Positions 12,574-41,120 of a stretch of DNA of 64,000 nucleotides are shown piece by piece. The position numbers and the translations under genes are program-made. A model generated the notes under the pieces. It saw only the letters and a program-made list of their open reading frames with translations. It had not been told where the DNA came from and searched no databases. Position 1 is the stretch's first letter, and the number at the start of each line of letters is the position of its first letter. This DNA is from a phage: the sequence record PZ386965.1; one strand, 5' to 3'.

Positions 12574-12701
12574 AATAATCTCTTCCCATTTCCATATCAA
12601 TTAATTCATTTATTGAAGGTTCATCATAACATGGTTCTTCGTCGTTGTAAACCGTTTCGACGTCTGGCTCGACAGTCTCCCATCGAGCCGAATACCACGG
12701 T

Positions 12702-13058
12702 TTAACCCCGGAGTTTATTGAGCTCTTCATAATCAATCCAGGATTCTAGCCCTGATGGCAGGTCACATTCAATGTTCCACAGAAGCTCTTCAATGGCTTG
12801 CAGGCGATTATATTCTTCAACGGTAATGGTAACCATTGGTGCAACCGGTTCTGCCTTTTTAACCATCATATCGTTCATCAGGACGTAAAGGTCATCACGA
12901 ACGACAGTGTCGTTCCAACCCCATGATTTGGCTTCGTAAGCTAATGACGAAGGGAGCACATTTAAAACTTCAATAATAGATGGAGATTCAGGACCAAGCT
13001 CTGATACACAAACTTCGTATGCATCTTGGAAATCTTTAAGATTTAATGAATATGTCAT
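12702..13058 (-). CDS. hypothetical protein
   Basis: 118-aa ORF. Confidence 0.45.
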   Translation of the reverse strand: MTYSLNLKDFQDAYEVCVSELGPESPSIIEVLNVLPSSLAYEAKSWGWNDTVVRDDLYVLMNDMMVKKAEPVAPMVTITVEEYNRLQAIEELLWNIECDLPSGLESWIDYEELNKLRG

Positions 13059-13077
13059 TTAAAATATTCTCGCAGTT
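13055..13077. repeat. 23-bp direct repeat copy 1 (TCATTTAAAATATTCTCGCAGTT)
   Basis: Identical to 13370-13392; the pair flanks the single gene 13077..13373. Confidence 0.8.
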
Positions 13078-13373
13078 TATTGTTCTACCCAGGCACAGGA
13101 AACTTCGAAATCAGGACCACCGTATTCCCAGTGATATTCACCAACAGGAATCCAGTCACCGTGCTCGTTTTCTTCGTAGTCTTCAGGTTCAAGACCAACG
13201 AATCGCCATTGAACACCTATGATTCGATTACCCATTAATATACGAAATTCACCCCATGGATTATCGATAGCATATTGGATATCGTTCTTAGCACGAGAAC
13301 ACATTTCTTGATATAACAAAGCTTCTAATTCGCCCTGATCATAAGGGCCCGGGAAAGTTAAATCAATACTCAT
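13077..13373 (-). CDS. hypothetical protein (cassette gene bracketed by direct repeats)
   Basis: 98 aa; ATG overlaps nrdC stop (ATGA). Confidence 0.45.
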   Translation of the reverse strand: MSIDLTFPGPYDQGELEALLYQEMCSRAKNDIQYAIDNPWGEFRILMGNRIIGVQWRFVGLEPEDYEENEHGDWIPVGEYHWEYGGPDFEVSCAWVEQ

Positions 13374-13392
13374 TTAAAATATTCTCGCAGTT
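13370..13392. repeat. 23-bp direct repeat copy 2
   Basis: Identical to 13055-13077; here it encodes the nrdC C-terminus and stop. Confidence 0.8.
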
Positions 13393-13633
13393 GGTCAAAT
13401 CCACCAATATGACTTCCGTCAGGAGCAAATACTTGAGGCATAGTCAATCCAACTTGTGATTCACGTCCAAGCTTAACCAGAAGCTCAGCAATTTTTTCTT
13501 CATCGAATACACCTTTTTCTGGCATAATGTTGATAAATTCAAACGGCTGTTTCTTAACAGTCAGCAATCGTTTCGCATTATCGCAATAAATGCATTTATG
13601 AATAGTAGAGTCATACCCGTACACTTTAAACAT
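13370..13633 (-). CDS. nrdC: thioredoxin NrdC
   Basis: 87 aa from MFKVYGYDS...CIYC; matches recalled T4 thioredoxin; GAAAGG SD. Confidence 0.9.
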   Translation of the reverse strand: MFKVYGYDSTIHKCIYCDNAKRLLTVKKQPFEFINIMPEKGVFDEEKIAELLVKLGRESQVGLTMPQVFAPDGSHIGGFDQLREYFK

Positions 13634-14039
13634 TATTTTTCCTTTCATCGATTAAATATGCAACGCCAAATACAATACATGTAATAAAACCTGTGATACA
13701 GATAGAAACCAACAACACTGTACCAAAGAACCAAATCAAGTTATCTTTAGTAGTTTGTTTGATATCCATCTCACGAATTTCTATAGCTATCGTATCACCT
13801 TTATTCAGAAGCGTATAAAATGACGGTGATACACGCCTGTCAAAAACTCGTCCTTGCTCATCTTTATAGACTGCAATAAATTCTAATTTAGAATATTTTC
13901 CTGTAGATTGGCCTGAGATTAATTCCACTACCTCCACAGGAATTACTTTAGTTTCCATGTAAGTATTCTGGCTGTTCCAAATGAATGGAATAATAGCAAA
14001 AACTAAAGCTGCGATAAAACAACGAAGGCTATATCTCAT
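13626..14039 (-). CDS. membrane protein (two hydrophobic segments)
   Basis: 137 aa; N- and C-terminal hydrophobic stretches. Confidence 0.45.
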   Translation of the reverse strand: MRYSLRCFIAALVFAIIPFIWNSQNTYMETKVIPVEVVELISGQSTGKYSKLEFIAVYKDEQGRVFDRRVSPSFYTLLNKGDTIAIEIREMDIKQTTKDNLIWFFGTVLLVSICITGFITCIVFGVAYLIDERKNNV

Positions 14040-14344
14040 TATAATGTTCTCTCAAATTTGTGGAAGCATTTACGGCATTTCAATTTCAAGTTATCAGTGG
14101 TCCAGTTAACCAGTTGGACTTGGATAGTTCCACATTCCGGGCATGGATGTTTTGCTGCCGATTTGGCAGCATTTTCACGTCGTTCAACCATTTTCATTAT
14201 TTCGTTCCATGCTGGAGGAACGAACTCTTCTTCACCGTGGATTTTATCTCGCTGAACAAATTCAATCTTTGAACTATCGTCAATAAACTTAACCAAGCCA
14301 TGATTAGTGCTCATATCAATATCCTCTAAAAGACGTAGGTTCAT
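14039..14344 (-). CDS. zinc-ribbon protein
   Basis: 101 aa; CPEC...CRKC pair. Confidence 0.45.
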   Translation of the reverse strand: MNLRLLEDIDMSTNHGLVKFIDDSSKIEFVQRDKIHGEEEFVPPAWNEIMKMVERRENAAKSAAKHPCPECGTIQVQLVNWTTDNLKLKCRKCFHKFERTL

Positions 14345-15285
14345 TATAACACCTCAATGGCATTTCGTAAACCGTCCGCTTTCGCATTCAGAGCTTTTAA
14401 CGATTTAGTCTGTTCTTTAATCTGAGCTTCGACTTCTTTCAGACGAGATTTGAGATATTCACGTTCTTCGCTCAGGTTATCAACCTTTTCAACTTTAGGT
14501 TCTTTAGGCTTATACTCGTTAGGATTCTTCAGTTTAATTCGAATTCGAGAACTGAATAACATTGAACCGTTATCTTCGGTTTCGTCGAACATTTCAACAA
14601 CATCCATAGTCTGTAACATCACGCAGAGTTTATAAGACAACGAACGAATAGTTTTGTTGTGCTTATTAATTTCTTCGGCTTTCATGGCACCGAGATTACG
14701 TGAGTAGTAATAAGGAACCTGGATATCAATTGATAATGATGCGTTACCATTACCTGTTGGTTTGAATACTGCAGTAACCCAATCTTTAACATGAACTTTA
14801 TTTGTACGATCATCGCCGCCTGTGAATAATTTACGAGAATGTTTAAAAAGCATATTCACTTGGTTATTGAATTCACAAGCAAATTTATCAGCAAATTTAG
14901 TTTCAGGAATGGTAGATAACCAATCAGCCAAATGAGTCTTTTTAACATCATTAACAATAGTGAATTCAACCAAATCGGTTTTAGATGTCACAGATTTAAT
15001 AAAGCTCGGTTTCATAAAGTTTTTAATGTTATCGCGAGCTACAGTAGAAGATAATAAACGAGAACGTTTGAACCATTGAAGCAGCGTCCCTAATGAATGA
15101 GAATATGCATTTTGAGTATCTTTACAGATATGATTTTCTTGGTCCGTGTATGTACCAAAATCTCGAAGAATACCACTTACTACATCTCGGTGTGGAATAT
15201 CAAATCCTAGTGCACCAGAAGCGCGCTGAGCATGAACGTTAGCGATAAGACCGGCAAAGTATTCAATGTAATGTGAACGTGTCAT
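14344..15285 (-). CDS. hypothetical protein with C-terminal coiled coil
   Basis: 313 aa; ATG with GAGGA SD; preceded by promoter 15314-15342. Confidence 0.5.
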   Translation of the reverse strand: MTRSHYIEYFAGLIANVHAQRASGALGFDIPHRDVVSGILRDFGTYTDQENHICKDTQNAYSHSLGTLLQWFKRSRLLSSTVARDNIKNFMKPSFIKSVTSKTDLVEFTIVNDVKKTHLADWLSTIPETKFADKFACEFNNQVNMLFKHSRKLFTGGDDRTNKVHVKDWVTAVFKPTGNGNASLSIDIQVPYYYSRNLGAMKAEEINKHNKTIRSLSYKLCVMLQTMDVVEMFDETEDNGSMLFSSRIRIKLKNPNEYKPKEPKVEKVDNLSEEREYLKSRLKEVEAQIKEQTKSLKALNAKADGLRNAIEVL

Positions 15286-23818: not shown

Positions 23819-24001
23819 TTATAGTGAATTCACGTAGTCAATGAGTTCTTGTTCTTTCCTGTCAAATGATTCCATCAATGCGTGATATTCTTCGTCCGTC
23901 AAAGGAGCATATTCATCGTACGCATTGGTGGCTGCTTGTTCATCCAATAGGTCATGGATAAGTTCGAACAGTTTAGCTTTCTCTTCTTTAGTTAATTTCA
24001 T
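23819..24001 (-). CDS. hypothetical acidic protein
   Basis: 60-aa ORF. Confidence 0.4.
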   Translation of the reverse strand: MKLTKEEKAKLFELIHDLLDEQAATNAYDEYAPLTDEEYHALMESFDRKEQELIDYVNSL

Positions 24002-24210
24002 TTAGGTTCACCTTCTTTAACGAAATCTGGGTAAGGGTAAAATCCTGAGTAAAATCCTTCACCTTTATGATTGCTACAACCTTTGTTCGAACAGTAACAC
24101 CAATAATCAAAATCACAAGCCATTTCGTCATTGCATAAAGCAAAAACTACAGGCCATTCGCATTTTTCGCATTTAGCACCTGTAAGAATTTTTGTTTGGC
24201 TCATAACCAT
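23998..24210 (-). CDS. cysteine-rich small protein
   Basis: 70 aa with about 10 Cys (CEKCEW...CNDEMACDFDYWCYCSNKGC). Confidence 0.4.
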   Translation of the reverse strand: MVMSQTKILTGAKCEKCEWPVVFALCNDEMACDFDYWCYCSNKGCSNHKGEGFYSGFYPYPDFVKEGEPK

Positions 24211-24428
24211 GTCACCTTTAAGCAGTATTCTTCTACATGCTGTTTACGACCTTTCTTATCAATAAAGGTATATTCAACGAATGTTCCAATGTAGTCTTTA
24301 TCTACGTCATGTGGACTATTAATTGGACATTTAGTACGACAAATGCGTTCCCATTGACGAATAATTACTGCTTTATTTTTAGGATCAAACGGATGTGGGT
24401 AATGCACATTCATAATAATGGTTCCCAA
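24201..24428 (-). CDS. hypothetical protein
   Basis: 75-aa ORF. Confidence 0.4.
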   Translation of the reverse strand: MGTIIMNVHYPHPFDPKNKAVIIRQWERICRTKCPINSPHDVDKDYIGTFVEYTFIDKKGRKQHVEEYCLKVTWL

Positions 24429-24877
24429 TCAACAATCACAATTTCTAGTTTAGTGGAATATGTATCAAGAATTTCTTCAATGATATCCCAGTTTCCACCA
24501 CCTATACCTGCACCAATTCTTGGCATATAAATTACAGGCTTTGTTATCTTATTTTTTCCGAATTCATTTAATTCTATTATACAATTCATTAAAGCATAGT
24601 ACTCAAAATTAGGTCCCGGCTCAAACTGTGTATAAAGATTAAAGCAATAAGCTTTATGGGTCTTAAAATATTTTTCATAAACCGAATAAGTCCCGAGTTT
24701 AGACTCATCTCCGAATTCGGTTTGAAGTTTATCGGCTTCTAAAATTTTTGGATAAGCCTTTGCCAATTGACCTGCTACACCGGCGCCCATTGTATGAAAA
24801 CAATTGCACCCATGAGCAATATTATTACCTTTAGAAAACAGGGCGATATTGTCGCCCTTGATATAGTTTTTAATCAC
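24410..24877 (-). CDS. macrodomain-like protein (putative ADP-ribose binding/hydrolase)
   Basis: 155 aa; N-terminal GxNxxHGCNC..MGAGVAG and C-terminal RIGAGIGGGNW glycine-rich motifs resemble macrodomain diphosphate-binding loops. Confidence 0.5.
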   Translation of the reverse strand: MIKNYIKGDNIALFSKGNNIAHGCNCFHTMGAGVAGQLAKAYPKILEADKLQTEFGDESKLGTYSVYEKYFKTHKAYCFNLYTQFEPGPNFEYYALMNCIIELNEFGKNKITKPVIYMPRIGAGIGGGNWDIIEEILDTYSTKLEIVIVDWEPLL

Positions 24878-28251: not shown

Positions 28252-28423
28252 ATTATTTCTCTTAAGGTTTGGGCCATTCCGTGGCACATGTTAGGTCCTT
28301 CGACTCGCTATGTAAACCCATTACCGCATTGCGCTCGACCTTATTACAGGTTGGAAAAGGTACATCACTCAGAGGACTCGACGTTCATGAGGAGAGGTTG
28401 CGTTTCCCTTTATTAGGCAAGAA

Positions 28424-28753
28424 TTATACTCTAGGCTTTTGAGCTTGTTTGGTATTGGATTCCCATGCGGCTTTGGTAATTTTGTTAGCGGCATAACCAA
28501 AGGCATTAGATAGAACACCTTTAGAGTTGAATACATCCAATCCAATAAGTACACCGGCTGCGTTAAATTTAGGAGCAAAGTACGCATTAGTTTTAGAAAG
28601 AGCTTTTTTCAATTCAGGGTCTTGAACCAAGCCATCAAAAACGCCTTTACTATTTACTTTATATGTTACTTTGGGATTCTTACCTTCTTCGATAGCAGCT
28701 TTCTGTTCCGCAGATAATGTAACTTCAGTGATAAACTCCTGATATGTTTTCAT
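28424..28753 (-). CDS. internal protein (capsid-targeting sequence MKTYQEFITE)
   Basis: 109 aa; N-terminal MKTYQEFI..E leader typical of T4 IPI/IPII/IPIII precursors processed by the gp21 prohead protease. Confidence 0.6.
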   Translation of the reverse strand: MKTYQEFITEVTLSAEQKAAIEEGKNPKVTYKVNSKGVFDGLVQDPELKKALSKTNAYFAPKFNAAGVLIGLDVFNSKGVLSNAFGYAANKITKAAWESNTKQAQKPRV

Positions 28754-28778
28754 TTTGTTCCTATTGTTTTAATTTATG

Positions 28779-29093
28779 TTATTCTTTAGGGAAGTTTTTA
28801 GAGTATGCATCATAAAGTTTATTACCAATACGACGGAAGACTTTAGCTGCAAAACGGTTTTCAGGGTTTTTAATCATGATTTGCATCATGTAAGTTCCTG
28901 CATCCGAAAGAGCTTCTTCATAGTACCCATTAATTTCTTTAAGAGTCCTACGTTTACCACCAGGACCGTCAACAGTAATTTTCCATTTACCTGTAGAAGT
29001 GCGGCTCGGTGGCTCAACTTGTTCAATCCAAATATAACCACCTTCAACGCGTTGGTTGGCGGATTCTGCAATAAATTCTTTATACGTTTTCAT
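28779..29093 (-). CDS. internal protein (capsid-targeting sequence MKTYKEFIAE)
   Basis: 104 aa; CTS leader; own early promoter at 29125-29154. Confidence 0.6.
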   Translation of the reverse strand: MKTYKEFIAESANQRVEGGYIWIEQVEPPSRTSTGKWKITVDGPGGKRRTLKEINGYYEEALSDAGTYMMQIMIKNPENRFAAKVFRRIGNKLYDAYSKNFPKE

Positions 29094-29124
29094 TTTTTGT
29101 TTCCTTGTTTGTTTTGATAGAGTA

Positions 29125-29154
29125 ATTATACCATATTAATACTTAAGCGTAAAC
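29125..29154 (-). promoter_or_regulatory. sigma70-type early promoter
   Basis: Minus strand GTTTACG-N17-TATAAT upstream of internal-protein gene. Confidence 0.5.
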
Positions 29155-29157
29155 AAT

Positions 29158-29418
29158 TTAAGCTTTACCTCCAGAAATAATTCCGAAGTTGTTAAAATCG
29201 TATCCAATATCGTCAACATCTACTTTAGGACTTACTACAACATAAGCAATTTCACTACGTTTTGCATAGGTGTTGATTTCTTTACCATCGCCACCTAAGA
29301 AAGAATACCCATTACGTTTTAATGAGCCAAAGTCTTCCGCATCACCAATGAAAGCTTTAACTTTAAATTTGGGGTCTTTGGCATCTGCTTCAATGATAAA
29401 TTCTTGATACATTTTCAT
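29158..29418 (-). CDS. internal protein (capsid-targeting sequence MKMYQEFIIE)
   Basis: Trimmed to ATG with AAGGA SD; 86 aa. Confidence 0.55.
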   Translation of the reverse strand: MKMYQEFIIEADAKDPKFKVKAFIGDAEDFGSLKRNGYSFLGGDGKEINTYAKRSEIAYVVVSPKVDVDDIGYDFNNFGIISGGKA

Positions 29419-29425
29419 TTTTTCC

Positions 29426-29839
29426 TTAGTAAATTGATTTACCATAGTATTTGTACCAAGACGGCCGTTGAGCAATTTTTTCATCTAAGCGTGCTTGACT
29501 TATCGCAATGGACGCTTCGGACGGGACGTAATTATTACGAAATTCTACAGGAATGTCGGAAATATCCTGGACAGTCGTGTCCTTGATTTTGAAACCACGT
29601 TTCAAGCATTCAGCGATTAGCTCGATTTGACGTAAACGTAAAAATTCGAGTTTGTCGTAAAAGAATGTTACGTGACCTGTGCCTAAGATAAATGTTGGAG
29701 AGATTTTAAAATCCTTTACACGTTTACCGTTTTGAACATGTTTACGGACTGCACCAAATACGCGTGGTAATTCACGATACTCGGCCATAAGATGTTGGTC
29801 GGCCAGTTCAGAAACAAGTGTTAAATTGATACGGGTCAT
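29426..29839 (-). CDS. denV: endonuclease V (pyrimidine-dimer DNA glycosylase) DenV
   Basis: 137 aa from [29 protein letters not shown]; matches recalled T4 DenV. Confidence 0.95.
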
Positions 29840-29866
29840 AATTTCCTCCAAGTAGTTGATGAATGT

Positions 29867-29896
29867 ATAGTATCAAAACTCTTGGAGGAAGTAAAC
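29867..29896 (-). promoter_or_regulatory. sigma70-type early promoter upstream of denV
   Basis: Minus strand GTTTAC-N18-TACTAT. Confidence 0.4.
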
Positions 29897-29897
29897 A

Positions 29898-30179
29898 CTA
29901 TTTTTCTGAAGCGCCTGAAATATATTTTTCAAGACGTTGTTTCATCAGCGAGCCGTTCTTAGCAATTTCTTCCGGTTTATCGCACATGCGCAACAATGCT
30001 TCAAGCTTAACGATATCACTGGTACGTTCAAATTTGCGAGTATCTATCTTACTAGCAAGTTCAGAAATACGTGCTAATAGACTTTCAGCTTCAACCAAAG
30101 CTGCACCTAGCTTAGTTGCAAATGTGTCAGTAGCTTCGTTAAGAATAGATTCTGATAAAAATTCACTATATGTTTTCAT
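29898..30179 (-). CDS. internal protein (capsid-targeting sequence [10 protein letters not shown])
   Basis: Trimmed to ATG; start codon overlaps lysozyme stop (ATGA); 93 aa. Confidence 0.55.
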
Positions 30180-30664
30180 ATATACGCTTTCCAAGTTCCT
30201 GTTTTAAATGTTGAGATTACGCGTTTCGCTCGATTAGGTGTCTGACGATACCATTTAGATTGGGCTAGATTTACTGCCGCCTCGTCCCAACGTTTCTGTT
30301 GAAGCATACGAAGAGAATTAGTAAAACCGGCAACGCCTGCTACACCCATTTGGAAGACCATATTGATCAATGCACATCGACGAACCGCATCTAAAGAATC
30401 ATATACCGGTTTAAGTTTAGCATTACCCAAGATTCCTCGAACGGCTTTATCAACGTCTTCATTAAATAGCTTTTCAGCCTCATCAAGGGTAATTGTACCG
30501 TTGCATTTACGACCGATCATTCTGTCAAGTTCAGCTTTAGCTACGGCTAAAGACGGGTTCTTTGTTACTAAATGGCCTATGCCAATCGTCCAAAAGCCTT
30601 CAGTGTCTTTATATAAAGTCAGTCTAAGACCTTCGTCATTACGAAGCATTTCAAATATATTCAT
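30176..30664 (-). CDS. e: lysozyme (endolysin, T4 e type)
   Basis: 162 aa from [32 protein letters not shown]; catalytic E11/D20/T26 context conserved; matches recalled T4 lysozyme. Confidence 0.95.
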
Positions 30665-30666
30665 AA

Positions 30667-30690
30667 TACCTCCCACGTTTATAGGAGGTA
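30667..30690 (-). promoter_or_regulatory. RBS-sequestering hairpin of gene e with embedded late-promoter-like sequence
   Basis: Perfect 7-bp stem TACCTCC/GGAGGTA with 10-nt loop; the GGAGG SD of e lies in the 3' arm; AATAAATA and TATAAACG late-promoter-like octamers overlap the 5' arm and loop. Confidence 0.6.
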
Positions 30691-30698
30691 TTTATTAC

Positions 30699-31157
30699 TT
30701 ATAGGATGGTAGTGAGCACCTTATATAACGATTTGCCCATTACATATTCCCATTGAGAAGGTTTAATTAAAGCGAATGCATCAAATTCAGGAATCTGACG
30801 TCCGTCTGGGAATGTATGATAGGAATTACAAACACTGTTTCTGAATTGCTCGTGCTCTACAGGGATGGTATATAGGAACAGATGAATATTCTTATTGTCT
30901 GAGTAATGATGTTCACCTAGGTCTTTCAGGAAGGCAGGGTCATATTGTGTAAACCCAGTTTCTTCTTCGCATTCACGAATAGCGGCTTCGATAGGAGATT
31001 CACCTGGCTCGACACGGCCTTTAGGAATATCCCACCGATGAGCTAAAGAACCTTTAGGACGAGAACCAGTTACACGCCCCATGAATAATTCTTTATCTTC
31101 GGTAAGGAAAATAATACCGGCTGATAGTTCTTTCACTTTATTTTTCTTACTCATCAT
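30699..31157 (-). CDS. nudE: Nudix hydrolase NudE
   Basis: 152 aa; Nudix box GRVEPGESPIEAAIRECEEETGF. Confidence 0.85.
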   Translation of the reverse strand: MMSKKNKVKELSAGIIFLTEDKELFMGRVTGSRPKGSLAHRWDIPKGRVEPGESPIEAAIRECEEETGFTQYDPAFLKDLGEHHYSDNKNIHLFLYTIPVEHEQFRNSVCNSYHTFPDGRQIPEFDAFALIKPSQWEYVMGKSLYKVLTTIL

Positions 31158-31383
31158 CTCGGTCCCATGATTTAGCCATTAATTCGGACATAAATTCTTC
31201 AATGCGCGTTTCTTTAGATGGACTTTCACTATTAGAGACCGCAAGTTTGTAATCTGCAATAGGACAGAACATATCAAGGTCCGTATTAAGGTCGTCTTTG
31301 ATTTTTTCTTCTGACACATCTTTATCGTATGTGTACAGATAACTATCACATGATTCTGATTTAATGTAAATTGCTATACTCAT
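31147..31383 (-). CDS. hypothetical acidic protein
   Basis: Trimmed to ATG (MSIAIYIKSE) overlapping upstream stop. Confidence 0.4.
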   Translation of the reverse strand: MSIAIYIKSESCDSYLYTYDKDVSEEKIKDDLNTDLDMFCPIADYKLAVSNSESPSKETRIEEFMSELMAKSWDRDDE

Positions 31384-31871
31384 CTCAAATTCCTGCATTC
31401 GGTAATAAAACGTTCAACTTCATTATTCTTGGCCTTTATCTTGTCTTTACGTTCCTGTAAACTACTTTTAACAAGATTAATAATGATGGCGGCGGTACCG
31501 CCGCCAATGATGCCACCAACAACACTTATGATACTAGATGCTAATAAGATAGCAATAATATCAACAAAACCGAAAGAACTCACCTTAGTACTGAAAAACC
31601 ATACCGACGGTACAAATATAATCCATCCTGTTATCCATTGGCACTTATTGAAAAACTTTTCAAGCTCAGCTTGAGTTGTTCGTATTACTTCATCGATAGG
31701 TTGATATCCATTAATGTATCTGTTCACGATAATACCTGCTGGCTGGTCGATTTTAAATTCTTGGCAAATACGTTTCACTAAGTAGGATGGACATCCTGTC
31801 CAATCTACTGAATAGTATGAAATACCTTCGTTGCCATCGTCTATATTAGACCAATATGTTTTGTTAATCAT
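31380..31871 (-). CDS. membrane protein with C-terminal ERFITECR motif
   Basis: 163 aa; two hydrophobic helices including Gly-rich IISVVGGIIGGGTAAIIINL; ends ...ERFITECRNLR. Confidence 0.45.
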   Translation of the reverse strand: MINKTYWSNIDDGNEGISYYSVDWTGCPSYLVKRICQEFKIDQPAGIIVNRYINGYQPIDEVIRTTQAELEKFFNKCQWITGWIIFVPSVWFFSTKVSSFGFVDIIAILLASSIISVVGGIIGGGTAAIIINLVKSSLQERKDKIKAKNNEVERFITECRNLR

Positions 31872-32558: not shown

Positions 32559-32864
32559 TTATTTTCCTCGACATTCTTTAATGAAATTTTCTAGATTGGT
32601 AGATTCAATAGCTTTTTTACGAGCTTCAGCGTGTTCTTCTTCAGTTAATCTACGTTTAAACTTGACCCAAACATTATGGTCGAAACCTGTTGTCGCGTAT
32701 AATAACAGAGCACCAACGAATAACAAAAACGGTGATAAAAATACACAACCAGGAACACCATCCATATCGTAAGCCTTTTGTAATACTGCAACAGAAAGAG
32801 CTGCGTAAAAAGGTGATGCAAATATTGTTAAAAGACCAATTCGGTTGGTTTCGCCTAATTTCAT
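32559..32864 (-). CDS. membrane protein with C-terminal ENFIKECR motif
   Basis: 101 aa; two TM segments; ends ...LENFIKECRGK; ATG with GAGGAG SD. Confidence 0.45.
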   Translation of the reverse strand: MKLGETNRIGLLTIFASPFYAALSVAVLQKAYDMDGVPGCVFLSPFLLFVGALLLYATTGFDHNVWVKFKRRLTEEEHAEARKKAIESTNLENFIKECRGK

Positions 32865-34218: not shown

Positions 34219-34416
34219 TTAGCAAGAATAACTAGATGATACCCAGCCTTGAACAGTAATACTATTATTTGATAACGAGATTGCGTCCTGGAGATTAAGA
34301 CCTGCGTTATCTTCAATCCACAATGTAACTTCTTCACGCTCTTCGGTTGCAATCTGGAACAGGTTTTCTAGGGCAGCTACTGCTGTACGTACAGCACAAT
34401 CTAATTCACGAGACAT
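34219..34416 (-). CDS. small protein, C-terminal GWVSSSYSC (paralog family member 3)
   Basis: 65 aa; shares terminal G-x-W-V-S-S-S-x-x-C with the two genes upstream. Confidence 0.45.
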   Translation of the reverse strand: MSRELDCAVRTAVAALENLFQIATEEREEVTLWIEDNAGLNLQDAISLSNNSITVQGWVSSSYSC

Positions 34417-34425
34417 ATGATTTCC

Positions 34426-34698
34426 TTAACAAGTGTGAGAAGATGCAACCCAACCGCCATCTTCAAGGCTCAAGTTGTAGTCGTATTGGTAAACATCGGC
34501 CCATTCAGCATAACCGTTTTTTGTACAACGTTCAAGATCGGCTTTAAGATGTCCTGGCGAATGATAGGTTCCACCCATGCCATAAGCTGGATACAAGTCG
34601 AATGTTGTGTTTTGTTTATCAGCAATTTCTTTGGCAGCCTCAATAGCTGCATAGATTTTTGCTACGGCTTCAGCCAGTTCGGTTTGTTCTTTAGACAT
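34426..34698 (-). CDS. small protein, C-terminal GGWVASSHTC (paralog family member 2)
   Basis: 90 aa; MSK start; YPAYGMGGTY core; terminal Cys. Confidence 0.45.
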   Translation of the reverse strand: MSKEQTELAEAVAKIYAAIEAAKEIADKQNTTFDLYPAYGMGGTYHSPGHLKADLERCTKNGYAEWADVYQYDYNLSLEDGGWVASSHTC

Positions 34699-34707
34699 AA
34701 TGATTCC

Positions 34708-35013
34708 TTAGCACAACGCAGAAGACGAAACCCAAGCACCTTCAGTAATAACGTAACCATTACCTTCACGCTTAACGTCGCCACCATTATTTTCAATTTC
34801 ATTTTTCATCCACTGGGATACGATTTCACCCTTAGGATAATAAGTACGACCGCTACCATAATCACCTACAGAAAACGATACAGCGTATTGGTCTGCGATC
34901 TTTGTTGCTTCTTCTTCGATACGTTCAGCTTGATTCAGAAGTTTATAAATTGCATCTGAAGCGGATTTGGCATCATTAAACTCTGGTACTTTAATTTCAA
35001 TAATCTTACTCAT
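34708..35013 (-). CDS. small protein, C-terminal GAWVSSSALC (paralog family member 1)
   Basis: 101 aa; MSK start; DYGSGRTYYPKGE core; terminal Cys. Confidence 0.45.
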   Translation of the reverse strand: MSKIIEIKVPEFNDAKSASDAIYKLLNQAERIEEEATKIADQYAVSFSVGDYGSGRTYYPKGEIVSQWMKNEIENNGGDVKREGNGYVITEGAWVSSSALC

Positions 35014-35369
35014 TTTCTACATTCCTTAATAAAGTTTTCGATTGTTTCATTTTCACGTCTAGCTAGGAGTTCATTATAACTAATCATTTGAGAAGCGTAA
35101 ACCTTTTTATTTTTCTTGTTATGGTTTATAAAATCGTAGTAAAAATAGACTACAGTACAAAAGGATGCTATTGATGCAAAGGCTTGGGTATACCGTAAGT
35201 CCTGCCATTGGTCTGTGAATCCACCGGTGTTACCTATAAATCCTAACACAACGCCATCAATAAGAAATCCAACTAATCCAAAGGCAAATCCCATGCCAAT
35301 ACTCATAATAAAAATTAGAATGTTCTCGCCAAGAGAAGGCCATACGGTTAAGAGTTGAGGCTTTTGCAT
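35010..35369 (-). CDS. membrane protein with C-terminal ENFIKECR motif
   Basis: 119 aa; multiple TM segments; ends ...ETIENFIKECRK; stop overlaps next ATG. Confidence 0.45.
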   Translation of the reverse strand: MQKPQLLTVWPSLGENILIFIMSIGMGFAFGLVGFLIDGVVLGFIGNTGGFTDQWQDLRYTQAFASIASFCTVVYFYYDFINHNKKNKKVYASQMISYNELLARRENETIENFIKECRK

Positions 35370-35773
35370 CTTATTTCCTTAACGAATTCCATAGCTTCTT
35401 CATATTCATACTTTTTAACAGCTTCAACATACTGAGCTTGGGCTTTTGCGCACTGAACTTTCCACTCGCGAACTCGAGCTCTGTGATGACGGCCTTGGTG
35501 CCAATATCCTGCCCAATTAATAGGCATTAATAAAAACGGTACAATAAGTGGTGCGACGAACATTAATGAAAACGCTGCATCAGACGATATAACTTTATTG
35601 GAATCTAAAATAGCTCCTATAATCATAAAGATTAAAAATGCTAAAGCTAAAATAGGGCCAAATAGTACTTCGTTTGGGATTAATTTACGTTTGTATTCGT
35701 ATGCCCAGGGCTTAATTGGCATGTACAGGGTTGGCTTTGACATATTCTCTACATTCCATAATAAATTGCTCAA
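35348..35773 (-). CDS. membrane protein with C-terminal EFVKEIRCK motif
   Basis: 141 aa; two TM segments; His/Arg-rich cytoplasmic loop. Confidence 0.45.
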   Translation of the reverse strand: MSNLLWNVENMSKPTLYMPIKPWAYEYKRKLIPNEVLFGPILALAFLIFMIIGAILDSNKVISSDAAFSLMFVAPLIVPFLLMPINWAGYWHQGRHHRARVREWKVQCAKAQAQYVEAVKKYEYEEAMEFVKEIRCKSLNS

Positions 35774-36308
35774 GGATTAAATTGTTAGTGAAATTAGGAC
35801 TAACAACCATAGTTTCATAAAGCGCATCAATAGCACTTAAAGCATCAACTCTTTTAAGCAAAGGCTTGCCTTCATACATAGTTTCAGAATCGATGATTAA
35901 CGTAAAGTAATATTTTTTATTATCGACTAGAACTTCTGTATCGATATAAAACATATTAGACCTCAGAAGCTTATCTCTAAAACCATAATAATCTTCTGAA
36001 CGTTCGCTGATATATTCCCATTCAGTGTTTAAACAACAAACAGACCATGTAGGAGCAACGAAATCAGTGAATCTAATATCATGGTCTGCAACTAGTTTAG
36101 CAATAGCTCCGATATCATGAATCATAATACCTGGGGCTAATAAAGATTTTCGGCGATTTGCGTATTCAGTTGTCTCATAAGAAGCTGACCAGTACCATTT
36201 ACGTCCAGTTGCAACATATCGTAATGAATCAACTAAAGACGTAGGTGGATTTACCTTATCTCGGAACTCTTCGAACATTGAGTCAATATCATTATTTTGG
36301 TTTCGCAT
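35712..36308 (-). CDS. hypothetical protein with EQFIMECR motif
   Basis: Trimmed to ATG (MRNQNNDIDS) with AGGAG SD; soluble; motif 8 aa from C-terminus. Confidence 0.45.
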   Translation of the reverse strand: MRNQNNDIDSMFEEFRDKVNPPTSLVDSLRYVATGRKWYWSASYETTEYANRRKSLLAPGIMIHDIGAIAKLVADHDIRFTDFVAPTWSVCCLNTEWEYISERSEDYYGFRDKLLRSNMFYIDTEVLVDNKKYYFTLIIDSETMYEGKPLLKRVDALSAIDALYETMVVSPNFTNNLILEQFIMECREYVKANPVHAN

Positions 36309-36326
36309 GTTAACTCCTTTATTATC

Positions 36327-36349
36327 CAAAAGGAGGACCGGAGTCCTCC
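36327..36349 (-). terminator. intrinsic terminator candidate
   Basis: 7-bp stem GGAGGAC/GTCCTCC with 4-nt loop followed by T4 on minus strand, just after stop of 36358..36951. Confidence 0.45.
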
Positions 36350-38169: not shown

Positions 38170-38198
38170 ATAGTAACACATCTATGGAAGAAGTAAAC
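38170..38198 (-). promoter_or_regulatory. sigma70-type early promoter
   Basis: Minus strand GTTTACT-N16-TACTAT; GATAGGTCTATAGTAACAC core shared with 26252 and 19452 elements. Confidence 0.45.
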
Positions 38199-38250: not shown

Positions 38251-38871
38251 TTACTTACGAGTTTTTGCATACTGAGCAGCGTCAGCAGCCAAACGACCTG
38301 CCTGACGAAGTTTTTCTTTAATCTCATCATGAAGTGGTTGAGTATACTTCAAACCTTCGATAGTCAAATAAAGACGATAAAGGTCTGGGGTGTCAAGGTT
38401 GTTGATATGTTGGCCATTACGAAGAATATTGAATTCACGAACGAGTGAAGATGTATCAGATTCAATATCACGAACAAGCGAAGATAGTTGTTTATATTTT
38501 TTTTCCAGGCTAGAAGTATCAAACTTAAGAGCAGGAGCTTTAGGAGCTGCTTTTACTTCCGGCTTAGGCTCAGGTTTTGCTTTAGGGGTCGCAGGTTTAG
38601 GAATGGTAGGAGCAGGTTTTACTTTAGGCGAACCAGATTTAGCAGAAACACCACCACTAACAATATCTTTGAATGCTTTAGAAGCTCTGTAATATTCTTT
38701 TTGGCTGGAAGTGTCGATACCATACATGGCTTGAACGTTTTTGAAAAACTCTGTACTAGTTTTTGTACCAGAAATAGCATCGTAAGCAGCTTGCCATTTC
38801 TCTTTTGTCATGCGTACACCGGCTTCGGTGATTACTTCCGTTTCGGCTAAAAATTCATTAAAAGTATACAT
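38251..38871 (-). CDS. internal-protein-like protein with CTS-like leader (MYTFNEFLAETE) and Pro/Lys-rich linker
   Basis: 206 aa; AAGGA SD; KPAPTIPKPATPKAKPEPKPEVKAAPKAPA low-complexity linker; late promoter 36 nt upstream. Confidence 0.5.
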   Translation of the reverse strand: MYTFNEFLAETEVITEAGVRMTKEKWQAAYDAISGTKTSTEFFKNVQAMYGIDTSSQKEYYRASKAFKDIVSGGVSAKSGSPKVKPAPTIPKPATPKAKPEPKPEVKAAPKAPALKFDTSSLEKKYKQLSSLVRDIESDTSSLVREFNILRNGQHINNLDTPDLYRLYLTIEGLKYTQPLHDEIKEKLRQAGRLAADAAQYAKTRK

Positions 38872-38906: not shown

Positions 38907-38914
38907 TATTTATA
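38907..38914 (-). promoter_or_regulatory. T4-type late promoter (TATAAATA)
   Basis: Exact TATAAATA on minus strand between terminator and the 206-aa CTS gene. Confidence 0.45.
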
Positions 38915-38915
38915 C

Positions 38916-38944
38916 AAAAAAGCCCCAACCTTTCGGAAGGGGCT
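38916..38944 (-). terminator. intrinsic terminator after tRNA/stable-RNA cluster
   Basis: Same AGCCCC...GGGGCT hairpin as 22639-22666, followed by T5-6 on minus strand. Confidence 0.55.
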
Positions 38945-38986
38945 TTATACCTTGTTGGGGTTTCCACCTACTAGGTAAGTGTTTGT

Positions 38987-39078
38987 ACGAAACGCCGGGA
39001 TTTGAACCCGGTTATTAAGTAGTTGACGCTACTCAATATTTTTAAAAGGCCATATCTCGACCATATCCGAACGTTCCG
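38987..39078 (-). ncRNA. tRNA-like stable RNA (perfect 7-bp acceptor stem and T-arm, non-canonical core)
   Basis: 5' CGGAACG pairs with 3' CGTTTCG; T-arm CCGGG-TTCAAAT-CCCGG; D and anticodon arms do not fold canonically; could correspond to T4 species 1/2 RNA. Confidence 0.35.
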
Positions 39079-39246
39079 TCAAAAACGCTACTCGGCTTAC
39101 GGCAAAGATATTTCCTCGAATCGTTAATTAGGTGCGCCGTTTCTGCTGTGATGTAAGGGGATATTAACAAATCGTAAAGATTTATTAAGACCAGTCCTTA
39201 CTCAGGGAACATCAGTCCGACGACTTGCCGGTAGCGACCCGGCTTC

Positions 39247-39591
39247 TTATTTTGGCATATCATCAATTTGCTCTCGACGCCGACGCCATAGATTAATCGC
39301 TTCATAAACACATTCAGCATTTGGTATATGGCGACAATAGTATAGTGATTCGCGTTTCTGGAACCGATGTTGTAATGGAATTTCGTTTAAAAGGTCTTTA
39401 CGGTCAAAGTATTCAAAACTAGTTAACCCGGAACGGTTTTTAAGAAACTTCCAATGTCCGAATTCATTTTTAAAATAAACGTAATCAGCGTGTTGATATA
39501 ACGAATTAATCAACCGGTCGGAAATAACTGTATCTTGTTCGTTAAAATAAAACGTTAAATCATGAACTACTAAGTAAACATTACCTTTCAT
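39247..39591 (-). CDS. hypothetical protein (tRNA-region ORF)
   Basis: Trimmed to ATG (MKGNVYLVVHD) with GAGGAAAA SD; ORF-track extension would overlap tRNA-Arg. Confidence 0.4.
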   Translation of the reverse strand: MKGNVYLVVHDLTFYFNEQDTVISDRLINSLYQHADYVYFKNEFGHWKFLKNRSGLTSFEYFDRKDLLNEIPLQHRFQKRESLYYCRHIPNAECVYEAINLWRRRREQIDDMPK

Positions 39592-39609
39592 ATTTTCCTC
39601 ACTTAAAGT

Positions 39610-39686
<77 letters not shown>

Positions 39687-39692
39687 AATATA

Positions 39693-39766
39693 TGACCCAG
39701 ACCAGATTCGAACTGGTAACCTTTCCCTTATGAGGGGACTGCTGCTAACCATTGAGCTACAGGGCC
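39693..39766 (-). tRNA. tRNA with CAU anticodon (Met or lysidine-type Ile)
   Basis: Manual fold: acceptor 6/7 bp, T-arm ACCAG-UUCGAAU-CUGGU, anticodon loop CUCAUAA; D-stem only 3 bp; no encoded CCA. Confidence 0.6.
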
Positions 39767-40768: not shown

Positions 40769-41056
40769 TTACAGAAGAGTTTTTGCAATAATTTTAAGTT
40801 GAGCTACAGAAATATGCTTAGCTTTAAACAGTGCGGTCTCTTCAGCCGGAGAGATAACAATAGTAGCGCCATCTTTCTTAGCAGACCATCCATCCCCTAA
40901 GTAAACAGTACCTTTTACTTCTTCGCCGTCAACCAGACTAATCATTGGTTTACCCTCACGGCCTTTGTTTGCTTTAATAACTTCGGAAGTAAGGGTTGCT
41001 TCGGTCAGAGTAGAAACGTTAGCAACAGGTGATATAAATTCTTTATAGGTTTTCAT
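40769..41056 (-). CDS. internal protein I-like (capsid-targeting sequence MKTYKEFI)
   Basis: 95 aa; CTS leader; position between tRNA region and 57B matches T4 ipI. Confidence 0.6.
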   Translation of the reverse strand: MKTYKEFISPVANVSTLTEATLTSEVIKANKGREGKPMISLVDGEEVKGTVYLGDGWSAKKDGATIVISPAEETALFKAKHISVAQLKIIAKTLL

Positions 41057-41090: not shown

Positions 41091-41120
41091 ATAGTAACAC
41101 ACCATCATCCTTATGTAAAC
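41091..41120 (-). promoter_or_regulatory. sigma70-type early promoter with stem-loop
   Basis: Minus strand GTTTACA-N17-TACTAT; GGATGAT/ATCATCC inverted repeat. Confidence 0.45.

What the first reader, a model, noticed from the sequence alone, without database searches (positions are those of the whole stretch)
28424..30179. Expanded set of capsid-targeted internal-protein genes flanking denV
Four ORFs begin with the T4 capsid-targeting leader pattern ([40 protein letters not shown]) but have unrelated bodies. T4 internal proteins are injected with the DNA, and IPI is known to block a host restriction system. A fifth CTS gene sits at the ipI position (40769..41056) and a sixth atypical one at 38251..38871. 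The bodies differ from what I recall of T4 IPII/IPIII, so these may be new injected anti-defence payloads.
Basis: partly seen in the sequence, partly recalled or inferred. Interest (0 to 1): 0.65.

Follow-up and report, generated by a model that had tools for sequence, protein, structure and literature searches.

The report
Internal-protein gene cassettes of RB69-like phage
This RB69-like phage encodes six small proteins that share the T4 leader for packaging into the phage head but differ after it; this is a known kind of gene set, present nearly unchanged in RB69 and many sequenced relatives, and five of the six still have no known function.

Summary
The window is a Mosigvirus, 97.8% identical to RB69 over this region. 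It holds exactly six ORFs that start with a T4-type capsid-targeting sequence (CTS); none is expected by chance. Four flank denV, one lies between the tRNA genes and e.8, and one is an IPI orthologue (88% identical to T4 IPI).

All six keep the residues shown in T4 to drive targeting (4 and 7) and gp21 cleavage (8 and 10, or 17-19 in IPI). The bodies are unrelated to each other, including by profile-profile comparison. They are also unrelated to T4 IPII, T4 IPIII and the McrBC inhibitor Bas37_0260.

The genes are not new:
- All four denV-flanking genes are in RB69, and each body family occurs in 91-497 deposited phage genomes.
- IpB belongs to the family annotated Ip10. IpD belongs to the family annotated Ip5.
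- RefSeq already labels two of the RB69 orthologues "internal head protein".
- The idea of diverse injected anti-restriction payloads behind a shared CTS is already published.

Packaging, cleavage and injection are strongly inferred but not shown. An anti-defence role is plausible by analogy only. Interest is low to moderate. What remains open is the function of five uncharacterised payloads in a phage with arabinosylated DNA.

The parts
28424..28753 (-). IpA: CTS-headed ORF, 109 aa, leader MKTYQEFITE. Mature form after Glu10 is about 10.6 kDa, pI 9.7. Orthologue of RB69ORF123c, which is annotated hypothetical in every record seen.
   Evidence: The body has 91 phage records, mostly Mosigvirus at 96-100%, and 32% matches in 04086, PSD9, E33 and ESCO10; the one locus examined, PSD9_187 (Dhakavirus), also has a CTS and also lies next to denV. 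Exhaustive HMMER over 1.84 billion representatives finds only its own cluster plus one cluster at 39% identity. No Pfam, NCBIfam or PADLOC hit. The AF2 model is unusable, pLDDT 57.
28779..29093 (-). IpB: CTS-headed ORF, 104 aa, leader MKTYKEFIAE. Mature form about 10.8 kDa, pI 9.6. Member of the Ip10 family. The RB69ORF124c orthologue is truncated by a frameshift in the RB69 reference.
29125..29154 (-). T4-type early-promoter-like site (GTTTAC, 18 nt, TATAAT) just upstream of IpB.
   Evidence: It scores 10 of 12 in the sigma-70 scan. It is one of ten GTTTAC...TAYWAT sites in the window, all on the minus strand, against 0.32 expected.
29158..29418 (-). IpC: CTS-headed ORF, 86 aa, leader MKMYQEFIIE. 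Mature form about 8.2 kDa and acidic, pI 5.2. Orthologue of RB69p125 ('internal head protein'). The ATG lies 7 nt after the denV stop, behind an AAGGA Shine-Dalgarno sequence.
   Evidence: PHROG 2667 'internal head protein' at 1.5e-21. 218 phage records, including Shigella and Salmonella phages at 68-74%.
29426..29839 (-). denV (endonuclease V, pyrimidine-dimer glycosylase). It is the conserved landmark between the cassettes and is not itself a CTS protein.
   Evidence: Pfam PF03013 at 6.6e-14; PHROG 1183 at 4e-62.
29867..29896 (-). Early-promoter-like site (GTTTAC, 18 nt, TACTAT) between IpD and denV. It sits inside an inverted repeat, ttcctccaag...cttggaggaa, that also covers the denV Shine-Dalgarno sequence.
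29898..30179 (-). IpD: CTS-headed ORF, 93 aa, leader [10 protein letters not shown]. Mature form about 9.2 kDa, pI 6.3. Member of the Ip5 family and orthologue of RB69p127 ('internal head protein'). Its ATG overlaps the stop codon of e (ATGA), which suggests translational coupling to the late-expressed lysozyme gene.
   Evidence: PHROG 3499 'internal head protein' at 1.2e-46. 47% identical, E 2e-20, to RB33 Ip5, which is bas37_0261.
30176..30664 (-). e (T4-type lysozyme), the conserved landmark upstream of IpD. Its leader holds a CCTCC...GGGAGG hairpin over the Shine-Dalgarno sequence, and near-consensus late boxes (AATAAATA, TATAAAC).
38251..38871 (-). IpE: atypical CTS-headed ORF, 206 aa, leader MYTFNEFLAE then TEVITE. 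Mature form about 21 kDa, pI 9.7. It has an N-terminal domain, a Pro/Lys/Ala-rich linker (about residues 80-113) and a C-terminal domain.
   Evidence: PHROG 2280, unknown function, at 8e-58. 144 phage records. Homologues in JS98 (66%), CBH8 (60%), Marfa (36%) and PG7 (31%) all keep a CTS-like leader ending in (I/L)xE directly before the conserved ERMTKxKWQAA body; e.8 lies just downstream in JS98 and PG7, and tRNA genes just upstream in Marfa.
38907..38914 (-). Perfect T4 late-promoter box TATAAATA. Its last base is 35 nt before the IpE ATG.
38916..38946 (-). Terminator-like hairpin (AAAGCCCC...GGGGCTTT followed by a T run) directly before the late box. It would insulate IpE from upstream transcription.
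   Evidence: Read directly from the sequence. Not scored by a tool.
40769..41056 (-). ipI orthologue, 95 aa. The long leader MKTYKEFISPVANVSTLTE predicts cleavage after Glu19, giving a 76-aa mature IPI*.
   Evidence: Pfam PF11634 IPI_T4 at 1.3e-50, covering residues 20-95. 88% identical to T4 IPI over the full length. The mature part is identical to RB69 IPI.
41091..41120 (-). Early-promoter-like site (GTTTAC, 18 nt, TACTAT) upstream of ipI, within an inverted repeat GGATGAT...ATCATCC.

Best explanation
The six ORFs are internal-protein (ip) genes of an RB69-like Mosigvirus.

Proposed mechanism, step by step:
1. Targeting (inferred from sequence rules established in T4). The N-terminal decapeptide acts as a capsid-targeting sequence. 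It binds the scaffolding core of the assembling prohead and carries the attached body inside.
2. Processing (inferred). The prohead protease gp21 cuts after the Glu of the (I/L)-x-E motif. That is residue 10 in IpA-D, residue 10 and/or 16 in IpE, and residue 19 in IPI. The mature proteins would be about 8-11 kDa, or about 21 kDa for IpE, and stay in the head with the DNA.
3. Delivery (inferred by analogy). The mature proteins are ejected into the cell together with the DNA, so they act before any phage gene is expressed.
4. Function. This is shown only for the IPI family; for the other five it is an analogy. Each body most likely neutralises one specific early-acting host defence, most probably a modification-dependent (type IV) nuclease. 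Candidates are a GmrSD/BrxU subtype or McrBC, enzymes that attack the arabinosylated cytosine DNA of these phages.
5. Evolution (shown by comparison). The genes behave as cassettes. They are gained, lost and moved between a few fixed slots: around denV and e, between 57B and tRNA.4, and between the tRNA genes and e.8.
For: Leader rules:
- All six leaders have an aromatic residue at 4 and Phe at 7, the targeting determinants. They also have I/L at 8 and Glu at 10, the processing determinants, or LTE at 17-19 in IPI. The rules come from PMC9026906.
- Six occurrences against 0 expected.
- The leader is kept while the body diverges. M1 K2 T3 Y4 E6 F7 E10 are invariant in Ip10-family members only 53-58% identical to IpB. 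The (I/L)xE site is kept directly before the conserved body in the four IpE homologues compared, which come from four other genera.

Position and expression:
- Positions match the T4 ip loci: denV-ipII-ipIII-e, and 57B-ipI-tRNA.4.
- IpE has its own terminator followed by a TATAAATA late promoter.
- The IpD start overlaps the stop codon of the late gene e.

Cassette behaviour:
- phi25-307 has two 'internal virion protein' genes of ipII and ipIII size (303 and 579 nt) inserted between the IpA and IpB homologues.
- The Ip10-type gene sits after denV in SP18 and CC31, but between e and denV in PS49 and fGh-Ecl04.
- RB69 has an extra Ip7-type gene beside ipI that the window lacks.
- p000y carries a different gene in the IpE slot.

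Function by analogy:
- T4 Ip1, Ip2 and Ip3 each block a different GmrSD enzyme (PMC12373910).
- Bas37_0260 blocks McrBC (bioRxiv 10.1101/2025.11.20.689424).
- RB69 and other Mosigvirus DNA is cut by GmrSD-family enzymes (PMC6024577; PMC13390438).
Against: - There is no direct evidence of packaging, cleavage or injection for any of these proteins. I found no virion proteomics of a Mosigvirus.
- No body is related to any functionally characterised Ip other than IPI.
- No body hits Pfam, NCBIfam, PADLOC or PDB sequences.
- The only confident model, IpB, has no informative structural neighbour.
- ip4-10 gave no reproducible inhibition of the GmrSD variants tested. If the numbering matches the GenBank notes, that set would include the Ip5 and Ip10 types.
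- A Mosigvirus (NP) is still sensitive to BrxU, and RB69 is still sensitive to the UTI89 GmrSD. The set is therefore not a general shield.
- IpA, IpB and IpC have no late promoter of their own. Late synthesis would need read-through from e. IpB and IpA also sit behind an early-type promoter.
- IpC and IpD are acidic to neutral, unlike the basic T4 internal proteins.
- The RB69 reference carries lesions in three of the four genes. The genes are therefore dispensable on laboratory hosts, unless the lesions are sequencing errors.
Confidence: 0.62

Rival explanations
1. The proteins are packaged, but their main role is inside the head. They would neutralise DNA charge, aid packaging, or help core and prohead assembly, as reported for part of T4 IPIII's phenotype. 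They would not counter host defences.
For: IpA, IpB and IpE are basic and lysine-rich, with mature pI 9.6-9.7. T4 internal proteins are abundant, basic and in contact with DNA phosphates, and IPIII mutants show slower head assembly and more polyheads (PMC3012670 and PMC9026906). Among the phages examined, IpE has a conserved slot and its own late promoter, which fits a structural accessory better than a shuffled cassette.
Against: IpC and IpD are acidic to neutral. Presence or absence varies between close relatives, and the RB69 reference shows lesions; both argue against a needed structural role. All four CTS proteins with a known function are defence inhibitors. T4 lacking all three internal proteins is viable.
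Confidence: 0.15
2. The proteins are injected effectors that reprogram the host (transcription, translation, envelope or metabolism), in the way T4 Alt does, rather than inhibitors of immune systems.
For: T4 also packages and ejects Alt, an ADP-ribosyltransferase that acts on host RNA polymerase. Arriving with the DNA suits any very early function. ip4-10 failed to inhibit any additional GmrSD group.
Against: The mature proteins are 8-11 kDa and hit no Pfam or NCBIfam family, enzymatic or otherwise. The IpB model is a small single domain and its best structural matches are not enzymes. Strain-level gain and loss is more typical of arms-race genes.
Confidence: 0.13
3. Some of the genes, especially IpA, IpB and IpC, are not packaged in useful amounts. 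The leader would be an inherited relic of cassette shuffling, and the proteins would act, if at all, as ordinary early cytoplasmic proteins.
For: An early-type promoter directly precedes IpB and IpA, and the denV cluster has no exact late box. The RB69 reference has a garbled IpD leader and E10A in IpA, yet the genes persist there. T4 IPIII still works when expressed in the host without its CTS (PMC9391042).
Against: The leader residues are invariant across family members whose bodies have diverged to about 53-58% identity, or to 31-66% in the IpE family. That implies selection on the leader itself. From my own knowledge, not checked here, T4 ip genes are also transcribed both early and late. 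No minus-strand terminator-like site lies between e and IpA, so late read-through is possible.
Confidence: 0.1

Closest known systems
[quoted passage not shown]
   Same: They share the N-terminal leader and cleavage motif, the genomic slots (denV-e, and 57B-tRNA.4), small size and non-essentiality. The window's IPI is a true orthologue (Pfam IPI_T4 at 1.3e-50; 88% identical).
   Different: The bodies of IpA-E have no detectable similarity to IPII or IPIII. IpC and IpD are acidic or neutral rather than basic. The phage DNA carries arabinosyl rather than glucosyl cytosine modifications. No target is known.
The polymorphic Ip4-Ip13 set of T-even phages (Repoila et al. 1994, EMBO J), as annotated in RB33 (Ip5, Ip7, Ip9) and SP18 (Ip10)
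   Same: IpB is 71% identical to SP18 Ip10, whose record cites 'Ip10 of Bacteriophage Pol'. IpD is 47% identical (E 2e-20) to RB33 Ip5. The Ip7 type is RB69p156, which this window lacks.
   Different: In Tequatroviruses such as RB33 these cassettes sit at the ipI locus. Here the Ip5-type and Ip10-type genes flank denV. IpA, IpC and IpE matched no numbered Ip that I could retrieve. I could not read the 1994 paper.
Bas37_0260, a CTS-bearing inhibitor of McrBC at the ipI locus of Tequatrovirus Bas37/KarlGJung (HIDEN-SEQ preprint, 2025)
   Same: It has the same leader (MKTYQEFIAE) and the same cassette logic. Its neighbour bas37_0261 is the Ip5-type homologue of IpD.
   Different: Its body shows no similarity to any window protein.
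Phage P1 Dar (defence against restriction) proteins packaged in the head
   Same: Functional analogy: antirestriction proteins are carried in the capsid and delivered with the DNA (PMC12810830 abstract).
   Different: Dar proteins are an unrelated set, associated with head morphogenesis in P1. From general knowledge, not tested here: they are much larger, have a different packaging hierarchy, lack the MKTYQEFIAE leader and target type I systems.

Membership tests
T4-type CTS internal (ejected) proteins | N-terminal capsid-targeting decapeptide with the targeting determinants: an aromatic residue at 4 and Phe at 7 | tested here: met
   All six have Y or F at 4 and F at 7. The rule is from PMC9026906.
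T4-type CTS internal (ejected) proteins | gp21 processing motif (I/L)-x-E at the end of the leader (residues 8-10, or 17-19 in the IPI type) | tested here: met
   ITE, IAE, IIE, LSE and LAE (with a second ITE at 14-16) at 8-10 in IpA-E; LTE at 17-19 in IPI.
T4-type CTS internal (ejected) proteins | Gene lies in a known ip hot spot (between vs.8 and e around denV, or between 57B and tRNA.4) | tested here: met
   IpA-D flank denV and IPI lies between 57B and tRNA.4, as in T4. IpE occupies a third slot, between the tRNA genes and e.8. T4 has no protein-coding gene annotated there; it has rnaC and rnaD.
T4-type CTS internal (ejected) proteins | Synthesis during late infection, when proheads assemble | tested here: inconclusive
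   IpE has a perfect TATAAATA box whose last base is 35 nt before its ATG. The IpD ATG overlaps the stop of the late gene e. IpA-C have no exact late box and would depend on read-through, and an early-type promoter precedes IpB. No transcript data.
T4-type CTS internal (ejected) proteins | Mature, N-terminally processed protein physically present in virions | not testable with these tools
   No Mosigvirus virion proteome was found in the literature searched.
T4-type CTS internal (ejected) proteins | Ejection into the host cell with the DNA | not testable with these tools
   Needs experiment.
IPI (Pfam PF11634, GmrSD inhibitor) | Sequence match to the IPI* domain | tested here: met
   Met only by the 40769-41056 ORF: E 1.3e-50 and 169.7 bits against a cut-off of 25. 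IpA-E have no hit.
T4 IPII / IPIII (GmrSD-ECOR21 and GmrSD-ECOR17 inhibitors) | Homology of the mature body | tested here: not met
   The best BLASTP E-values for IpA-E against IPII or IPIII bodies are 1.1 or worse, in databases of 9 and 17 sequences.
Bas37_0260 (McrBC inhibitor) | Homology of the mature body | tested here: not met
   The best match is 9 residues at E 2.2.
Ip10 family | Full-length homology to a protein annotated Ip10 | tested here: met
   The IpB body is 71% identical to SP18 Ip10 over 94 residues (tblastn E 1e-40). The profile search returns the same protein, P0004, named Ip10.
Ip5 family | Homology to a protein annotated Ip5 | tested here: met
   IpD body against RB33 Ip5 body: 47% over 74 residues, E 2e-20.

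The most novel reading that the evidence does not exclude
One or more of the five uncharacterised payloads could act outside the GmrSD and McrBC classes already known for this protein family. It could inhibit a defence that specifically senses arabinosylated cytosine DNA, or a system that is not type IV at all. The best candidates are the acidic IpC and IpD, or the larger two-domain IpE, which has its own late promoter and homologues in four other genera. That would extend the CTS cargo system from 'anti-type-IV' to a general platform for delivering counter-defence before gene expression starts.
Probability: 0.25. Interest if true: 0.55.

Novelty: new member of a known kind. Interest (0 to 1): 0.28.

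Why it matters
Injected proteins act before any phage gene is expressed, so they decide whether modified-DNA phages survive the first seconds against restriction. Four CTS proteins now have known targets: three GmrSD subtypes and McrBC. Dozens of other CTS cargo families have none.

Mosigviruses are common in phage-therapy and biocontrol collections. Their DNA carries an arabinosyl modification that GmrSD-family enzymes still cut. Knowing what their five uncharacterised payloads block would help explain and predict host range.

As a discovery, though, this adds little. The genes, their leaders and the hypothesis are already in the databases and the literature. The useful outputs are a clean list of payload families, their slots, and which of them are not yet labelled as internal proteins (IpA, IpE, and mostly IpB).

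Tried and rejected
- **IpA and IpB as remote paralogues.** PHROGs place both in phrog_3966 at about 1e-33. I rejected this: hhalign of the CTS-less family profiles gives probability 0.2% and BLASTP gives E 1.8. The PHROG looks composite.
- **Function from family libraries.** Pfam, NCBIfam, PADLOC and PDB sequence searches gave nothing for IpA-E.
- **Function from fold.**
  - The IpA model is too poor to search, pLDDT 57.
  - The afdb50 library was unavailable.
- **IpD family as the new McrBC inhibitor.** Rejected. Bas37_0260 is the neighbour of the Ip5-type gene bas37_0261 and is unrelated to every window protein.
- **Deeper homologue sets.** The word-indexed search returned only 2-10 proteins per family. 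Exhaustive HMMER on IpA added one real cluster; its other hits were multi-stretch matches to giant repetitive proteins, which I judged spurious.
- **Literature.**
  - Repoila 1994 is not held.
  - The Silas 2025 supplements give no ip4-10 sequences.
  - One search on Ip numbers returned only unrelated papers.
  - No Mosigvirus virion proteome was found.
- **Faster sequence evolution of the ip genes than of denV between the window and RB69.** Not evident by eye in the alignment. Variation is by cassette content, not by substitution rate. No formal dN/dS was done.
Full report
**What the window is.** The 2.5-kb region around the finding is 99.2% identical to Escherichia phage p000y and 97.8% identical to RB69. 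Of the records that match, 74 carry at least 80% of the stretch in one place; every one examined is a Mosigvirus. Gene order follows RB69 and T4: vs.8, ip cassettes, denV, ip cassette, e, nudE ... e.8, tRNAs, tRNA.2-4, ipI, 57B, 57A, gene 1. All of these are on the minus strand.

| Name used here | Coordinates | Length | Leader |
|---|---|---|---|
| IpA | 28424-28753 | 109 aa | MKTYQEFITE |
| IpB | 28779-29093 | 104 aa | MKTYKEFIAE |
| IpC | 29158-29418 | 86 aa | MKMYQEFIIE |
| IpD | 29898-30179 | 93 aa | [10 protein letters not shown] in error; correct reading [10 protein letters not shown] |
| IpE | 38251-38871 | 206 aa | MYTFNEFLAE |
| IPI | 40769-41056 | 95 aa | MKTYKEFISP...LTE |

(The IpD leader is [10 protein letters not shown], as.)

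A six-frame scan of all 64 kb for M[KY][TM][YF]xEF[IL]x[EP] returns these six and no others. Shuffled sequence gives 0.0 for this pattern and 0.055 for a looser one. denV lies between IpC and IpD (Pfam Pyr_excise at 6.6e-14; PHROG endonuclease V at 4e-62).

**Bodies.**
- With the first ten residues removed, no two window proteins are similar. The best pair is IpA and IpB at E 1.8 in a 17-sequence database.
- PHROGs assign IpA and IpB to one family, phrog_3966. I therefore built CTS-less family alignments and compared the profiles. hhalign gives probability 0.2%, so the PHROG is a composite.
- None of IpA-E resembles T4 IPII, T4 IPIII or the McrBC inhibitor Bas37_0260.
- The ORF at the ipI position is an IPI orthologue. 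It matches Pfam IPI_T4 at 1.3e-50 and is 88% identical to T4 IPI. Its mature part is identical to RB69 IPI.

**Do the leaders satisfy what is known of the CTS?** Mutational work on IPIII, summarised in PMC9026906, places targeting mainly at residues 4 and 7 and processing at residues 8 and 10. All six leaders have Y or F at 4 and F at 7. IpA-E have I or L at 8 and Glu at 10. IPI instead has LTE at 17-19, which matches the start of the Pfam IPI* domain at residue 20.

The leader is conserved independently of the body:
- In the Ip10 family, M1 K2 T3 Y4 E6 F7 E10 are invariant in sequences only 53-58% identical to IpB.
- In the IpE family, the leaders of JS98, CBH8, Marfa and PG7 vary. Each still ends in (I/L)xE immediately before the conserved ERMTKxKWQAA body.

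This is the strongest sequence-level argument that the leaders are functional.

**Expression signals.**
- IpE: a terminator-like hairpin with a T run (38916-38946) is followed at once by a perfect late box, TATAAATA (38907-38914). The last base of the box is 35 nt before the ATG.
- IpD: its ATG overlaps the stop codon of e (ATGA). e keeps the T4-like hairpin over its Shine-Dalgarno sequence and near-consensus late boxes.
- IpC: it starts 7 nt after the denV stop.
- The denV cluster has no exact late box. T4-type early-promoter-like sites (GTTTAC, 16-19 nt, TAYWAT) precede denV, IpB and ipI, and one follows IpE. The window has ten such sites, all on the minus strand, against 0.32 expected.
- No minus-strand terminator-like site lies between e and IpA. 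Late read-through from e is therefore possible but not shown.

**Are they new?** No.
- RB69 (NC_004928) has orthologues of all four: p123, p124, p125 and p127. Their bodies are 95-100% identical over the matched parts.
- tblastn of the CTS-less bodies against 50,697 phage records finds:

| Body | Records | Notable matches |
|---|---|---|
| IpA | 91 | Mostly Mosigvirus at 96-100%, plus 32% matches; the locus examined, PSD9_187 (Dhakavirus), is CTS-headed and lies beside denV |
| IpB | 190 | 71% to SP18 'Ip10', noted as 'similar to Ip10 of Bacteriophage Pol'; 48-55% in Karamvirus |
| IpC | 218 | — |
| IpD | 497 | 47%, E 2e-20, to the RB33 gene noted Ip5, identical to bas37_0261 |
| IpE | 144 | JS98 66%, CBH8 60%, Marfa 36%, Karamvirus about 31% |

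- RefSeq calls RB69p125 and p127 'internal head protein'. A UniRef cluster names the IpB protein 'IpII internal head protein'.
- IpA and IpE are 'hypothetical' in every record I saw.
- Exhaustive HMMER over 1.84 billion representatives finds only two genuine IpA clusters. These families appear confined to T4-like phages.

**Cassette behaviour.**
- Mosigvirus phi25-307 has two 'internal virion protein' genes of ipII and ipIII size inserted between its IpA and IpB homologues.
- The Ip10-type gene lies after denV in SP18 and CC31. In PS49 and fGh-Ecl04 it lies between e and denV, overlapping the end of e.
- RB69 has an additional Ip7-type gene (p156) beside ipI that the window lacks.
- p000y, the closest genome over the denV cluster, carries an RB69p149-type gene where the window has IpE.
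- Between the window and RB69, substitutions are spread evenly over the ip genes and denV. Diversity here comes mainly from gene content.

**Function.** Family libraries give nothing for IpA-E: Pfam, NCBIfam, PADLOC and PDB sequences.

Structure prediction:
- IpB folds confidently with a 10-sequence alignment (pLDDT 84.5, pTM 0.77) into a compact domain of three strands, a helix and two strands.
- IpA could not be modelled (pLDDT 57).

Predicted mature chemistry differs between proteins. IpA, IpB and IpE are basic (pI 9.6-9.7). IpC has pI 5.2 and IpD pI 6.3.

The functional assignment therefore rests on analogy:
- T4 Ip1, Ip2 and Ip3 each inhibit one GmrSD subtype (PMC12373910; PMC9391042).
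- Bas37_0260 inhibits McrBC (bioRxiv 10.1101/2025.11.20.689424).
- Reviews already describe T-even internal proteins as a diverse set of defence proteins sharing only the CTS (PMC3012670).

The target class is relevant to this phage:
- RB69 DNA is restricted by GmrSD enzymes, and its IPI protects against the CT596 enzyme but not the UTI89 enzyme (PMC6024577).
- Mosigvirus 5-arabinosyl-dC DNA is cut by BrxU (PMC13390438).

Against a simple extension of the analogy, ip4-10 showed no reproducible inhibition of further GmrSD groups.

**Verdict.**
- That these are CTS cargo genes is well supported by sequence. I put the probability that they are packaged and processed at about 0.85-0.9.
- That they are anti-defence payloads is the best available hypothesis, at about 0.55.
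- The specific guess that they target type IV nucleases I put at about 0.35.
- They are not newly discovered genes, and the concept is established.

I rate the finding 'new member of a known kind'. Five payload families are uncharacterised, and two of them are not annotated as internal proteins anywhere I looked. Interest is 0.28.

Noticed in passing
window 28380-30230 compared with L001 (RB69 NC_004928) 12681-14531: The RB69 reference differs from the window, and from most Mosigvirus records, by lesions in three of the four cassettes. A -1/+1 indel pair garbles the IpD leader (MKTYMNFYQNLSLNE instead of [15 protein letters not shown]). A +1 G insertion truncates IpB (90 instead of 104 aa). 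T9A and E10A remove the first cleavage site of IpA. These are either decay in the laboratory stock or errors in the 2003 sequence.
   Followed up: partly
window 31380-31871, 32559-32864, 35010-35369, 35348-35773, 35712-36329 (all minus strand): Five neighbouring ORFs in the e.2-e.5 area end in a shared C-terminal peptide motif, F(I/V)xE(C/I)R, lying 1-11 residues before the stop. The motif occurs nowhere else in the six-frame translation. In three of the ORFs (31380-31871, 32559-32864, 35010-35369) the same DNA supplies the Shine-Dalgarno sequence and the start codon of the next gene.
   Followed up: partly
window 34219-34416, 34426-34698, 34708-35013 (minus strand): Three tandem small ORFs (65, 90 and 101 aa) all end in G(x)WV(x)SSxxC. 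They look like a locally duplicated family with a conserved Cys at the C-terminus. Function unknown.
   Followed up: no
window about 38930-39200 (minus strand), between the ORF at 39247-39639 and IpE: A non-coding stretch of about 270 nt contains a tRNA-like T-arm (GGTTCAAATCC) and ends in the terminator hairpin before the IpE late promoter. T4 has the small stable RNAs rnaC and rnaD at this position. ARAGORN and Rfam (E up to 0.1) report nothing here.
   Followed up: partly
window-wide, for example 29125-29154, 29867-29896, 38170-38198, 41091-41120: Ten GTTTAC-N16-19-TAYWAT early-promoter-like sites occur, all on the minus strand, against 0.32 expected. At least two (upstream of denV and of ipI) sit inside inverted repeats. 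From memory, these resemble the 'promoter-early stem-loop' cassettes proposed as recombination points in T4-type genomes; I did not check the literature. Four of the ten bracket the ip cassettes.
   Followed up: partly
PHROG phrog_3966, matched by window 28424-28753 and 28779-29093: The PHROG profile matches both IpA and IpB at about 1e-33 over their full length. Yet profile-profile comparison of the two CTS-less families finds no relationship (probability 0.2%). The PHROG appears to merge two unrelated cargo families.
   Followed up: yes
window 39610-39766; L010 (p000y) 23937-24768: The window has only two tRNA genes (Arg-tct and Met-cat), as RB69 does. p000y, its closest relative over the denV cluster, has ten. 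The window also lacks RB69's Ip7-type gene beside ipI, and it has a different gene from p000y and RB69 in the IpE slot. The window is therefore mosaic relative to its nearest sequenced relatives.
   Followed up: partly
window 30664-30720 (minus strand), leader of gene e: The Shine-Dalgarno sequence of e (GGGAGG) can pair with an upstream CCTCC, and near-consensus late boxes lie in and before the loop. From memory, this is the arrangement described for T4 e, where early transcripts hide the ribosome-binding site.
   Followed up: no
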